Positions 33,045 through 33,856 of a stretch of DNA of 64,000 nt are shown one piece after another. Source of the stretch: Escherichia coli (GTDB lineage Bacteria > Pseudomonadota > Gammaproteobacteria > Enterobacterales > Enterobacteriaceae). Location of the stretch: NCBI RefSeq assembly GCF_041248615.1, contig NZ_CP158426.1. One strand, given 5' to 3'. Position numbers and translations under genes: made by a program. The stretch's first letter is position 1; every line of letters starts with the position of its first letter. The notes beneath the pieces were generated by a model that saw only the letters and a program-made list of their open reading frames with translations, was not told the DNA's origin and did not search any database.

Positions 33045-33434
33045 ATGACGATGTACGCAAAATCCTTTATTGCATTTGATGGCAACGGGCGTCTGACGGG
33101 TGCCCGTACCGCACAGACTGCACCTTACGATCGCTACACTTGCCACCTTTGCGGCAGTGCGCTCAGATACCACCCGCAATACGACACTGAGCGTCCCTGG
33201 TTTGAACACACTGACGACGGGCTGACGGAGCACGGTCAGCAGTGCCCTTATGTCAGACCGGAACGCAGGGAGATACAACTGATTAAGCGTCTGCAGCAAT
33301 TCGTACCGGATGCCTTACCCGTGGTGCGTAAAGCCAGCCGGCACTGCAGACAATGTCATCACGATTATTATGGGGAGCGGTACTGCACGCACAGCCATAC
33401 CGGGCACTTCAGTGAGGAGGGGGTGGCAGAATGA
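33045..33434 (+). CDS. Cys/His-rich zinc-ribbon-like protein A (unknown function)
   Basis: 129-aa ORF; motifs C-x2-C-G...WFEH and C-x2-C-H...C-x3-H; stop overlaps the start of the next ORF (ATGA). Confidence 0.5.
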   Translation: MTMYAKSFIAFDGNGRLTGARTAQTAPYDRYTCHLCGSALRYHPQYDTERPWFEHTDDGLTEHGQQCPYVRPERREIQLIKRLQQFVPDALPVVRKASRHCRQCHHDYYGERYCTHSHTGHFSEEGVAE

Positions 33435-33856
33435 ACGGTATAAAAACGGGGCTGGGGATCACGCCGGGTGAACACATTATCAGTGCTGATTCTGCGCTCA
33501 GCAGAAATATCCGGCAGTGTTTCTGCCTTTCCTGTCATGGCCGGTTGATTTTGCAGACAGATGCTCAGGGGGCGTGGTTTGAGCACGATTTACATGTCCT
33601 GAGCGAGCAACAGAAGGCAGCCTGCGTGGTGCTGAATCCGGAAAAGTCCCACCCTTACATTGAGGATATGGAGATGTTTTTATCGCCATTACCGGTCGTG
33701 CTGGAGTGGCATTGTGTGATGTGTGAGCAGTTTTTTCATGGGAAGAAATTCTGTGAGGCCTGTGGTACGGGGATTTATTGCAGAGCGGTATGTACGAAGT
33801 CTGTTTACAGCTACCAGCCAGACTTGTTTCAGGACTGCGGAGGTGCGAGTACTTAA
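33431..33856 (+). CDS. Cys/His-rich zinc-ribbon-like protein B (paralogue of A, unknown function)
   Basis: 141-aa ORF with the same motif arrangement (C-x2-C-H-G...WFEH, then C-x2-C...C-x2-C-G); translationally coupled to A. Confidence 0.5.
   Translation: MNGIKTGLGITPGEHIISADSALSRNIRQCFCLSCHGRLILQTDAQGAWFEHDLHVLSEQQKAACVVLNPEKSHPYIEDMEMFLSPLPVVLEWHCVMCEQFFHGKKFCEACGTGIYCRAVCTKSVYSYQPDLFQDCGGAST

What the first reader, a model, noticed from the sequence alone, without database searches (positions are those of the whole stretch)
33045..33856. Translationally coupled pair of paralogous Cys/His-rich zinc-ribbon-like proteins: candidate undescribed module
Two same-strand ORFs (129 and 141 aa) overlap by ATGA at 33431-33434, implying coupled translation. 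Each protein has two Cys/His clusters in the same order: first C-x2-C-(G/H)-G followed about 15 residues later by WFEH (A: CHLCGSALRYHPQYDTERPWFEH; B: CLSCHGRLILQTDAQGAWFEH), then a second cluster (A: CRQCHHDYYGERYCTHSH; B: CVMCEQFFHGKKFCEACG). This looks like a duplicated gene pair encoding metal-binding proteins. I cannot assign either to a characterised family from memory. Context is an integrase/AlpA-bearing tRNA island, between IS1414 and a YfjJ-like gene, which is the kind of locus where defence or other accessory systems accumulate.
Basis: partly seen in the sequence, partly recalled or inferred. Interest (0 to 1): 0.7.

Follow-up and report, generated by a model that had tools for sequence, protein, structure and literature searches.

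The report
Paired CoiA-N-like zinc proteins, island backbone
Two overlapping genes encode paralogous small zinc-binding proteins that are a common but functionally unstudied backbone part of E. coli-type genomic islands; their first domain is related to the zinc finger of the competence nuclease CoiA, but they have no nuclease domain.

Summary
Two same-strand ORFs overlap by ATGA at 33431-33434 and are paralogues (31% identity, E 2e-9).

- **Family.** Both are DUF7828 (PF25165) plus Zn_ribbon_11 (PF11682). RefSeq calls them "putative zinc ribbon protein". About 71% of complete E. coli genomes carry them, with a median of two copies.
- **Literature.** No paper found describes them.
- **Conserved module.** Across Enterobacterales the pair sits in one module: HUH Rep-like Gp2/YfjJ, sometimes AlpA, ZnA, ZnB, a Gp2-like paralogue lacking the HUH/Tyr motifs, then DUF2913. 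Variable cargo follows.
- **Selection.** Both genes are under purifying selection (dN/dS 0.08-0.34).
- **Defence.** No PADLOC, NCBIfam, PHROG or phage match.
- **Best reading (inferred).** They are island-backbone accessory zinc proteins that work with the HUH proteins in island replication or mobilisation, not a defence system.
- **This copy looks impaired.** IS1414 separates it from the upstream gene. ZnA also carries W99R and C117S at nearly invariant positions, which removes one zinc ligand.

Interest is moderate.

The parts
33045..33434 (+). ZnA: DUF7828 (CoiA_N-like CCHC zinc finger) + Zn_ribbon_11. Likely true start is ATG 33051 (127 aa). This allele carries W99R and C117S at positions at least 90% invariant elsewhere.
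   Evidence: DUF7828 2.8e-31; Zn_ribbon_11 only 1e-4; relatives have ASWHC...CTHC; RefSeq start at 33051.
33431..33856 (+). ZnB: paralogue of ZnA with DUF7828 + an intact C4 Zn_ribbon_11. Residues about 125-141 are predicted disordered.
   Evidence: DUF7828 3.7e-22; Zn_ribbon_11 3.8e-15; paralogy; AF2 mean pLDDT 85.6, both domains above 90, tail 50-60.
33431..33434 (+). ATGA stop/start overlap of ZnA and ZnB. Shine-Dalgarno-like GAGGAGG for ZnB at 33414-33420, inside ZnA.
   Evidence: The same 4-nt overlap is in L003, L031 and L032. A 13-nt overlap is in L002, L008, L009, L011, L012, L014, L028 and L034.
30757..31356 (+). Upstream Gp2/YagK/YfjJ-family protein with HUH-type motifs (RxDxxY, HIH, YLAKxEQK). 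It is the usual 5' neighbour of the pair.
   Evidence: RefSeq 'inovirus-type Gp2 protein'; motif conservation; synteny.
31446..32759 (+). IS1414 (IS256-like) insertion with a 9-bp target duplication. It lies 89 nt after the Gp2 stop and 285 nt before ZnA, and separates the pair from its upstream gene. It is absent in strain AR13438.
   Evidence: alignment of window against L004; annotation.
34328..34894 (+). Downstream Gp2-like paralogue (YagK/YfjJ domain) that lacks the HUH histidines and the YxxK motif, so it is probably catalytically inactive.
   Evidence: annotation; alignment: PYLMVLLLNND in place of HYHAVLLLNRD; phrog_32179, unknown function.
35225..35941 (+). Hypothetical 238-aa protein after the Gp2-like paralogue, in the position held by DUF2913 in other genera. 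Whether it belongs to the module is uncertain.
   Evidence: no family hit; DUF2913 in this slot in Klebsiella; no DUF2913 homologue in the window.
30376..30525 (+). Hha/YmoA-family gene just upstream of Gp2. It recurs in this position in E. coli copies of the module.
   Evidence: annotation transferred from L001/L004.
27959..28165 (-). AlpA-like helix-turn-helix regulator of the island. In other genera the alpA gene lies between Gp2 and ZnA.
   Evidence: 76% identity to the AlpA of L028.
42292..43827 (-). Island end: tyrosine integrase (42292-43554) and tRNA-Phe (43752-43827).

Best explanation
**Shown**
- ZnA and ZnB are ordinary members of a small, Enterobacterales-restricted family.
- Each protein has a CoiA_N-like CCHC zinc-finger domain (DUF7828), a linker helix, and a C4 zinc ribbon (Zn_ribbon_11).
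- They are encoded as a coupled paralogous pair in the conserved backbone of CP4-57-type, tRNA-inserted integrative islands.
- The pair lies immediately after an HUH-motif Gp2/YagK/YfjJ protein. A Gp2-like paralogue without the HUH/Tyr motifs and DUF2913 often follow, and variable cargo starts after that.

**Inferred**
- The pair is a nuclease-free nucleic-acid-structure or protein adaptor, probably a heteromer.
- It would assist the neighbouring HUH Rep/relaxase-like protein in nicking, replicating or mobilising the excised island.
- In this reading the CoiA_N-like finger does what it presumably does in CoiA, a structure-specific ssDNA/D-loop endonuclease: it positions a nuclease on DNA. Here the nuclease would be supplied in trans by the HUH protein.

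**This copy**
- In this window the module is probably compromised. IS1414 cuts it off from the Gp2 gene and its promoter region.
- ZnA has also lost one ribbon Cys and a nearly invariant Trp.
For: **Identity.** Pfam hits. Conserved ligands across 47 homologues. The family is small: 344 clusters at 90% identity and 91 representatives at 50%. Every named source organism is Enterobacterales, apart from a few metagenome bins labelled otherwise.

**CoiA_N link, three independent lines.**
- A real streptococcal CoiA N-terminal fragment hits CoiA_N at 3e-14 and DUF7828 at 3.5e-5.
- hhalign of the family against a CoiA_N alignment gives probability 92.5%, E 4.8e-7, aligning the N-terminal strand, CxxC, (H/W)F(A/E)H and the following Cys.

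**Backbone position.**
- A Gp2-like gene lies within about 2.3 kb upstream in 16 of 23 genome-scan loci from about 15 genera. Three of the other seven are cut by a contig end.
- The full operon-like order Gp2 - AlpA - ZnA - ZnB - Gp2 - DUF2913 is seen in a Klebsiella plasmid-borne copy.
- The same order recurs in E. coli.
- Cargo after the module varies: McrBC, type I hsdM, T6SS sheath, tmexCD-type RND pump.

**HUH motifs.** They are conserved in the upstream Gp2 and lost in the downstream paralogue.

**Real genes.** dN/dS is 0.08-0.34 for both. Start/stop overlaps are conserved.

**Window-copy damage.**
Against: - No experiment or paper addresses these proteins. The function of CoiA_N in CoiA is itself untested.
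- Neither ZnA nor ZnB hits the CoiA_N HMM directly at E <= 10.
- The proteins are near neutral (pI 5.7-8.3), not basic as many DNA binders are.
- A linked A-B AlphaFold2 model gave pTM of only 0.46, so a heterodimer is not supported.
- K-12 CP4-57 has yfjJ without the pair. L003 has the pair without the downstream Gp2-like paralogue. The parts are therefore separable.
- Identity of the upstream Gp2 (61% between W and L003) does not track identity of A and B (93%). There is no sign of co-evolved specificity with that Rep.
- No conserved iteron or hairpin was found next to the module across genera.
Confidence: 0.4

Rival explanations
1. The pair are zinc-finger transcription regulators of the island. 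They would act with or downstream of AlpA (and Hha) to switch on excision or backbone genes, in the manner of small phage or satellite zinc-finger activators.
For: alpA lies directly before ZnA in many genera, on the same strand and with short gaps. An Hha-family gene precedes the module in E. coli. Small two-zinc-site proteins are a common regulator format (general knowledge).
Against: There is no hit to any DNA-binding regulator family. Ogr_Delta is absent from the Pfam lists, which go to E <= 10. The weak RPB9-like match is insignificant at E about 1. The proteins are not basic. The homologous CoiA_N domain is known only as part of a nuclease, not a transcription factor.
Confidence: 0.2
2. 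The pair is itself a small anti-phage or anti-plasmid defence (or counter-defence) module carried in the island's cargo hotspot.
For: The slot right after yfjJ holds defence genes in K-12 (AbpAB, RnlAB; PMC10732053). McrBC or type I R-M genes follow the pair in some loci. A CoiA-domain protein was recovered in a functional screen for E. coli defence systems (PMC9519451).
Against: There is no PADLOC hit and no enzymatic or effector domain. The pair is constant while the genes after it vary. A prevalence of about 71% of E. coli genomes with a median of two and up to seven copies fits an island backbone better than a defence system. IS elements frequently disrupt it.
Confidence: 0.1
3. Whatever the family does, the copy in this window is an inactive relic of a decaying island.
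For: IS1414 sits between Gp2 and ZnA, and no promoter-like site remains in the 285 nt before ZnA. ZnA has W99R and C117S at positions at least 90% invariant in the family, which removes a zinc ligand and drops its Zn_ribbon_11 score to 1e-4. The surrounding island is full of IS elements and pseudogenes. At least 10 of 23 loci in other genera show split or truncated A or B.
Against: Both reading frames are intact. The identical proteins are found in several E. coli lineages. dN/dS between this copy and L003 is low, at 0.08 and 0.21. H116 or H118 could replace the lost Cys. IS256-type elements can provide outward transcription (general knowledge, not tested).
Confidence: 0.3
4. The two ORFs are frameshifted halves of one decayed gene.
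For: Rare longer fusions exist, for example P0158 (238 aa), which has an extra DUF7828 domain in front of a complete protein.
Against: Each ORF has the complete DUF7828 + ribbon architecture. The two-gene arrangement with its own Shine-Dalgarno and overlap is conserved across genera. Both are under purifying selection.
Confidence: 0.01

Closest known systems
Pfam DUF7828 (PF25165) + Zn_ribbon_11 (PF11682, formerly DUF3279); RefSeq 'putative zinc ribbon protein'
   Same: Both window proteins are straightforward members. Identical sequences (WP_000270956.1, WP_001013324.1) are already annotated in RefSeq genomes.
   Different: Nothing differs at family level, except that this ZnA allele has lost the fourth ribbon Cys and the conserved Trp. 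The families carry no functional description.
CoiA competence protein of Bacillota (CoiA_N PF25164 + PD-(D/E)xK nuclease PF06054 + C-terminal region), the D-loop resolvase of natural transformation
   Different: No nuclease domain and no CoiA C-terminal region were detected, and a C4 zinc ribbon follows the finger instead. The proteins are 127-141 aa rather than about 300. They come as a paralogous pair, in Enterobacterales island backbones rather than a competence regulon. CoiA is reported as restricted to Bacillota.
Backbone of CP4-57 / CP4-type integrative islands of E. coli (int - alpA - yfjI - yfjJ ...)
   Same: The tRNA-adjacent tyrosine integrase, AlpA, YfjI and Gp2/YfjJ-family genes are all present. 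The pair sits directly after the yfjJ-type gene.
   Different: The K-12 reference island CP4-57 lacks the pair. The pair, the second Gp2-like gene and DUF2913 form an extra block that no paper found describes.
HUH Rep/relaxase systems with accessory DNA-binding partners (rolling-circle replicons, relaxosomes)
   Same: There is an HUH-motif protein with conserved motif I, HxH and a YxxK-like motif, flanked by small accessory proteins in one operon-like block.
   Different: No nicking activity, origin or oriT has been shown for Gp2/YfjJ proteins of these islands. Known accessory factors are usually RHH or HU-like, not CoiA_N-like zinc proteins. This analogy is inference only.

Membership tests
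Pfam DUF7828 (PF25165) | Significant match to the family HMM over most of its length | tested here: met
   ZnA 2.8e-31 (model 1-87 of 87). ZnB 3.7e-22 (model 2-86 of 87)..
Pfam DUF7828 (PF25165) | Conserved CxxC ... (W)FEH ... C ligand set | tested here: met
   C32, C35, F50, E51, H52 and C65 (ZnB numbering) are invariant or at least 90% conserved in 47 sequences. Both window proteins have them.
Pfam Zn_ribbon_11 (PF11682) | HMM match and the W-x-C-x2-C ... C-x2-C-x2-G ribbon | tested here: met
   ZnB scores 3.8e-15 with all four Cys. ZnA scores only 1e-4 because this allele has R for the conserved W and S for the fourth Cys. Fully met for ZnB, marginal for ZnA.
CoiA competence protein | CoiA_N-type N-terminal zinc finger | tested here: met
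CoiA competence protein | PD-(D/E)xK nuclease domain (PF06054) with catalytic D/E residues | tested here: not met
   No PF06054 hit at E <= 10. After the finger there is only a linker helix and a 37-residue zinc ribbon.
CoiA competence protein | Competence-regulon context in Bacillota; role in transformation | tested here: not met
   The family is found in Enterobacterales genomic islands and a few plasmids. CoiA is reported as restricted to Bacillota. A role in transformation is not testable with these tools.
Known anti-phage defence systems (PADLOC-DB v2) | Match to any defence-system protein model | tested here: not met
   No hit at E <= 0.1 for ZnA, ZnB or three neighbours. DefenseFinder was not available.
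P2 Ogr / P4 Delta zinc-finger activators | Match to Ogr_Delta family; phage or satellite late-gene context | tested here: not met
   Ogr_Delta is not among the Pfam hits listed to E <= 10. No homologue was found in 50,697 phage records.
CP4-57-type integrative island backbone | tRNA-adjacent tyrosine integrase, AlpA regulator and a Gp2/YagK/YfjJ-family gene next to the feature | tested here: met
   Integrase 42292-43554 and tRNA-Phe 43752-43827. AlpA-like gene 27959-28165. Gp2 30757-31356. The same neighbours appear in 16 of 23 loci from other genera.
Type II toxin-antitoxin pair | Two unrelated small proteins, one a toxin fold and one an antitoxin or DNA-binding fold | tested here: not met
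   The two proteins are paralogues with the same architecture and no toxin domain.

The most novel reading that the evidence does not exclude
ZnA/ZnB would define a new functional class: nuclease-free CoiA_N-like zinc proteins. As a heteromeric sensor or clamp for ssDNA-dsDNA junctions or D-loops, they would license an HUH (Gp2/YfjJ) enzyme. That enzyme would then replicate or mobilise the very common CP4-type islands of Enterobacterales. This would give a first mechanism for how these 'cryptic' islands propagate, and a first function for the CoiA N-terminal finger.
Probability: 0.2. Interest if true: 0.65.

Novelty: new variant of a known kind. Interest (0 to 1): 0.4.

Why it matters
CP4-type islands are among the most common mobile elements in E. 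coli and its relatives. They carry virulence, resistance and defence cargo. Even so, the function of their Gp2/YfjJ block is unknown.

The pair studied here is present in about 71% of complete E. coli genomes, usually in several copies. A function for it would therefore annotate thousands of genes at once.

The link to CoiA_N gives a concrete hypothesis to test: recognition of DNA structure without a built-in nuclease. It also offers a tractable enterobacterial system for learning what that finger does.

If the pair instead proved to be only a dispensable regulator, the gain would be modest.

Tried and rejected
- **NCBIfam, PADLOC, PHROGs.** No hit for ZnA or ZnB.
- **PDB by sequence.** Single-sequence and profile searches gave only insignificant matches (RPB9, CENP-V/GFA, E 0.2-2). 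This may relate to the database label 'DNA-directed RNA polymerase subunit' seen on some homologues, but I did not trace where that label comes from.
- **Foldseek AFDB50.** The listed top 50 of 696 matches were essentially all family members or uncharacterised enterobacterial proteins.
- **Literature.** No paper for DUF7828, DUF3279, PF11682, Ybl85, YfjJ/YagK function or DUF2913.
- **Phage records.** No homologue.
- **K-12.** The CP4-44 and CP4-57 regions hold no copy; yoeG/yoeH are unrelated. I did not check CP4-6 or the rest of the K-12 genome.
- **Heterodimer test.** AF2 on ZnA-(GGGGS)6-ZnB with 12 paired rows plus unpaired rows gave pTM 0.46. This is inconclusive, and no PAE or contact output was available.
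- **Conserved origin-like repeats near the module.** A 13-nt TGTAA array exists in this island, but it is not shared by other loci.
- **Rfam on 26000-37000.** Nothing.
- **First genome scan.** The scan with the 47-sequence alignment failed for lack of a conserved stretch. I repeated it with ZnA-type sequences only.
- **An inference I dropped.** I first read the E. coli hits covering 60-70% of the pair as recombinant ZnB alleles. In the two sampled cases they are IS66 insertions in ZnB.
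Full report
**1. Observation**

The window holds ORFs 33045..33434 (129 aa) and 33431..33856 (141 aa) on the + strand. The stop of the first and the start of the second share ATGA at 33431-33434. A GAGGAGG lies 10 nt before the second ATG. The first gene more likely starts at ATG 33051: GAGGAA at 33038-33043 has good spacing to it, RefSeq starts there, and homologues in other genera begin MYAKSF.

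The two proteins are paralogues, at 31% identity with E 2e-9. In an alignment of 47 family members the following are invariant or at least 90% conserved (ZnB numbering):
- Site 1: C32, C35, F50-E51-H52, C65.
- Site 2: W93, C95, C98, Y102, G104, C108, C111, G114.

This gives one CCHC-type site and one C4 ribbon per protein.

**2. Family**

Pfam assigns both proteins the same architecture:

| Protein | DUF7828 (PF25165) | Zn_ribbon_11 (PF11682) |
|---|---|---|
| ZnA | 2.8e-31 | 1e-4 |
| ZnB | 3.7e-22 | 3.8e-15 |

- RefSeq annotates identical proteins as 'putative zinc ribbon protein' or 'DUF7828 domain-containing protein'.
- The DNA of the pair matches 3853 of 5426 complete E. coli genomes, with a median of two and up to seven places per genome, almost all chromosomal.
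- The protein family is small. It has 344 clusters at 90% identity and 91 representatives at 50% among 1.84 billion proteins, many of them fragments.
- The named sources are Enterobacterales: Escherichia, Salmonella, Citrobacter, Klebsiella, Enterobacter, Serratia, Hafnia, Budvicia, Photorhabdus and others. A few metagenome bins carry other labels.
- NCBIfam, PADLOC and PHROGs give nothing.
- No homologue exists in 50,697 phage records.
- Thirty-three plasmid records have one. Some are misfiled chromosomes, and 16 are Klebsiella plasmids of about 210-480 kb where listed.
- No paper in the library mentions the families.

**3. Structure and the CoiA link**

AlphaFold2 with the 47-sequence alignment gives a confident ZnB model, with mean pLDDT 85.6. 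It shows an N-terminal beta-rich domain with short helices (residues 1-70, pLDDT about 97), a linker helix, a three-stranded ribbon (92-119, about 96) and a disordered tail.

I tested the link by sequence as follows.
- The real streptococcal fragment P0211 hits Pfam CoiA_N at 3.2e-14 and DUF7828 at 3.5e-5 over the same residues.
- hhalign of the family alignment against four such fragments gives probability 92.5% and E 4.8e-7. It aligns the N-terminal strand (FIALDGNG.L..A against FVARN.KG.L.NA), the CxxC, PWFEH against PHFAH, and the next Cys.

So DUF7828 is a remote homologue of CoiA_N. ZnA and ZnB do not hit the CoiA_N HMM directly, so this remains remote homology.

CoiA is a PD-(D/E)xK, structure-specific ssDNA endonuclease that resolves the transformation D-loop in Bacillota. 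Its N-terminal 'putative C2H2-type zinc finger' is mentioned only once in the paper, and the terms I searched found no experiments on it (bioRxiv 10.1101/2024.02.06.579203). ZnA and ZnB show no detectable nuclease domain, so they are not CoiA proteins.

**4. Genomic context**

The window is a pheV-type island.
- Integrase lies at 42292-43554 (-) and tRNA-Phe at 43752-43827 (-).
- kps capsule genes, Ag43, CbtA/CbeA and many IS elements and pseudogenes lie further left.
- Around the pair the order is: AlpA-like HTH (27959-28165, -), Hha-family gene (30376-30525), Gp2/YagK/YfjJ-family gene (30757-31356), IS1414, ZnA, ZnB, a second YagK/YfjJ-domain gene (34328-34894), then a 238-aa hypothetical.
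- IS1414 occupies 31446-32759 with a 9-bp duplication. It is missing in strain AR13438, which is otherwise 99.9% identical over the aligned 30001-36500.

A scan of one genome per species returned 23 loci in about 15 genera. My ORF clustering gave these counts:
- A Gp2-like gene lies upstream of ZnA in 16 of the 23. Three of the rest are cut by a contig end.
- A small AlpA-like HTH gene often lies between Gp2 and ZnA.
- A second Gp2-like gene follows ZnB in six loci, then a roughly 200-aa family that RefSeq calls DUF2913.
- After that the gene content varies: type I hsdM, T6SS sheath and others.

The cleanest example is a Klebsiella IncFIB/HI1B plasmid. It has inovirus Gp2, AlpA, ZnA, ZnB, inovirus-type Gp2 and DUF2913 on one strand with short gaps, followed after about 2.4 kb with no listed gene by an RND efflux operon. 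E. coli copies show YfjI, a hypothetical gene, HTH(-), Hha, Gp2, ZnA, ZnB, and then either Gp2' or IS66 elements. McrBC follows the pair in one strain. K-12 CP4-57 has yfjJ followed directly by the AbpAB defence genes, without the pair.

The pair therefore belongs to the conserved flank of a cargo slot, not to the cargo. It is also not an obligatory partner of every yfjJ gene.

**5. The Gp2-like neighbours**

The upstream family conserves three motifs: R.D..Y, G..WV.E....H.H.H and YL.K..Q. This is the three-motif pattern of HUH rolling-circle Rep or relaxase enzymes.

The downstream paralogues, including the window's 34328-34894, have lost both the His pair and the Tyr-Lys motif. The module thus pairs a probably active HUH protein with a probably inactive one, and the two zinc proteins lie between them.

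**6. Selection, coupling and modularity**

- dN/dS is 0.08-0.34 for ZnA and 0.10-0.29 for ZnB wherever dS is measurable.
- The overlap is 4 nt in the E. coli class and 13 nt in most other loci. Ten of the 23 genome-scan loci keep both genes intact. The rest show split, truncated or IS-interrupted copies.
- ZnB falls into discrete classes. Strain C and this window share ZnA at 88% identity (92% over the BLAST-aligned 123 residues) but ZnB at only 29%, with the DNA break near 33403.
- Within the second class, ZnB is more conserved than ZnA.
- The upstream Gp2 can differ (61% identity) while A and B stay at 93%.

**7. State of this copy**

ZnA here reads ASRHC...CTHSH, where close relatives read ASWHC...CTHC. 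Both changed positions are at least 90% invariant in the ZnA alignment, and the window sequence is itself an exception at both. The change removes the fourth ribbon ligand, which explains the weak Zn_ribbon_11 score.

IS1414 separates the pair from Gp2. No sigma-70-like site was found in the remaining 285 nt. The copy may be impaired, although both frames are open.

**8. Mechanism**

*Shown.*
- The domain composition and the zinc-ligand pattern.
- The CoiA_N homology.
- The backbone position beside HUH-motif proteins.
- Purifying selection.

*Inferred.* The pair acts as a nuclease-free adaptor that helps the HUH protein act on island DNA, in replication or mobilisation after excision. It would use the same finger that accompanies a structure-specific nuclease in CoiA. 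I put this at about 0.4.

*Against it.*
- The proteins are near neutral in charge.
- The linked-dimer model is unconvincing, at pTM 0.46.
- The parts are separable.
- No conserved origin-like repeat was found.

*Rivals.*
- Island transcription regulators working with AlpA and Hha: about 0.2.
- A defence or counter-defence module: about 0.1.
- Independently of what the family does, this particular copy being inactive: about 0.3.
- A split single gene is excluded.

**9. Novelty and score**

The genes are catalogued but uncharacterised. What this work adds:
- The CoiA_N relationship.
- The definition of the HUH - (AlpA) - ZnA - ZnB - HUH' - DUF2913 module.
- The ZnB classes.
- The defects of this allele.

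It is a reasonable target for experiment because it is so widespread, but nothing here is startling. Interest is 0.4.

Noticed in passing
window 29671-29735: There are five tandem 13-nt units starting TGTAA (TGTAATTCTACCG TGTAAATGAACCC TGTAATTCTACCT TGTAAATACACCT TGTAACCAAGTCC). They lie in the roughly 1-kb gene-poor stretch upstream of the Hha and Gp2 genes. The spaced TGTAA pattern occurs in 0 of 100 shuffles. It is iteron-like, and a possible protein-binding array.
   Followed up: partly
window 29907-29942: A second short tandem array (about 3.4 copies of TTTTTCTGTTA) lies in the same AT-rich intergenic region. It is seen only in this island type.
   Followed up: no
window 34328-34894 and L007, L009, L011, L012, L014 downstream genes: The Gp2/YfjJ-like gene after ZnB has lost the HUH histidines and the YxxK motif. 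The upstream copy keeps them. The module therefore pairs an active-looking and an inactive-looking paralogue.
   Followed up: partly
window 33403 onward; L002 8001-8803; L034: E. coli genomes share ZnA at about 90% DNA identity but carry one of at least two ZnB classes that are only about 29% identical. The switch comes near the 3' end of ZnA. It also changes the ZnA C-terminus and the overlap length (4 or 13 nt).
   Followed up: partly
L032 4884-5069; L033 4884-4985 and 7520-7609: IS66-family elements have inserted inside ZnB in different E. coli strains, and right after the pair in others (L031, L034). This suggests a local insertion hotspot, or tolerance of ZnB loss.
   Followed up: no
P0158 (238 aa): This is a rare fused form, with an extra DUF7828 domain lacking a ribbon joined in front of a complete DUF7828 + ribbon protein. 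It could be a natural A-B fusion or a frameshift product.
   Followed up: no
L028 5606-7753 (Klebsiella plasmid p1-7011.62-NDM1): About 2.1 kb upstream of the module has no listed gene. The PLSDB gene table is incomplete, so this may be an annotation gap. The same plasmid copy of the island is followed, after a further gap of about 2.4 kb with no listed gene, by an RND efflux operon predicted as adeF-like.
   Followed up: no
window 1-27000 (by transfer from L004): The left part of the window carries kps capsule genes, an Ag43-type autotransporter, a CbtA/CbeA toxin-antitoxin pair, antirestriction, JAB/RadC-like and DUF932 genes, and a YeeP-type GTPase. This is the usual CP4-type island set, mixed with IS fragments and pseudogenes.
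   Followed up: no
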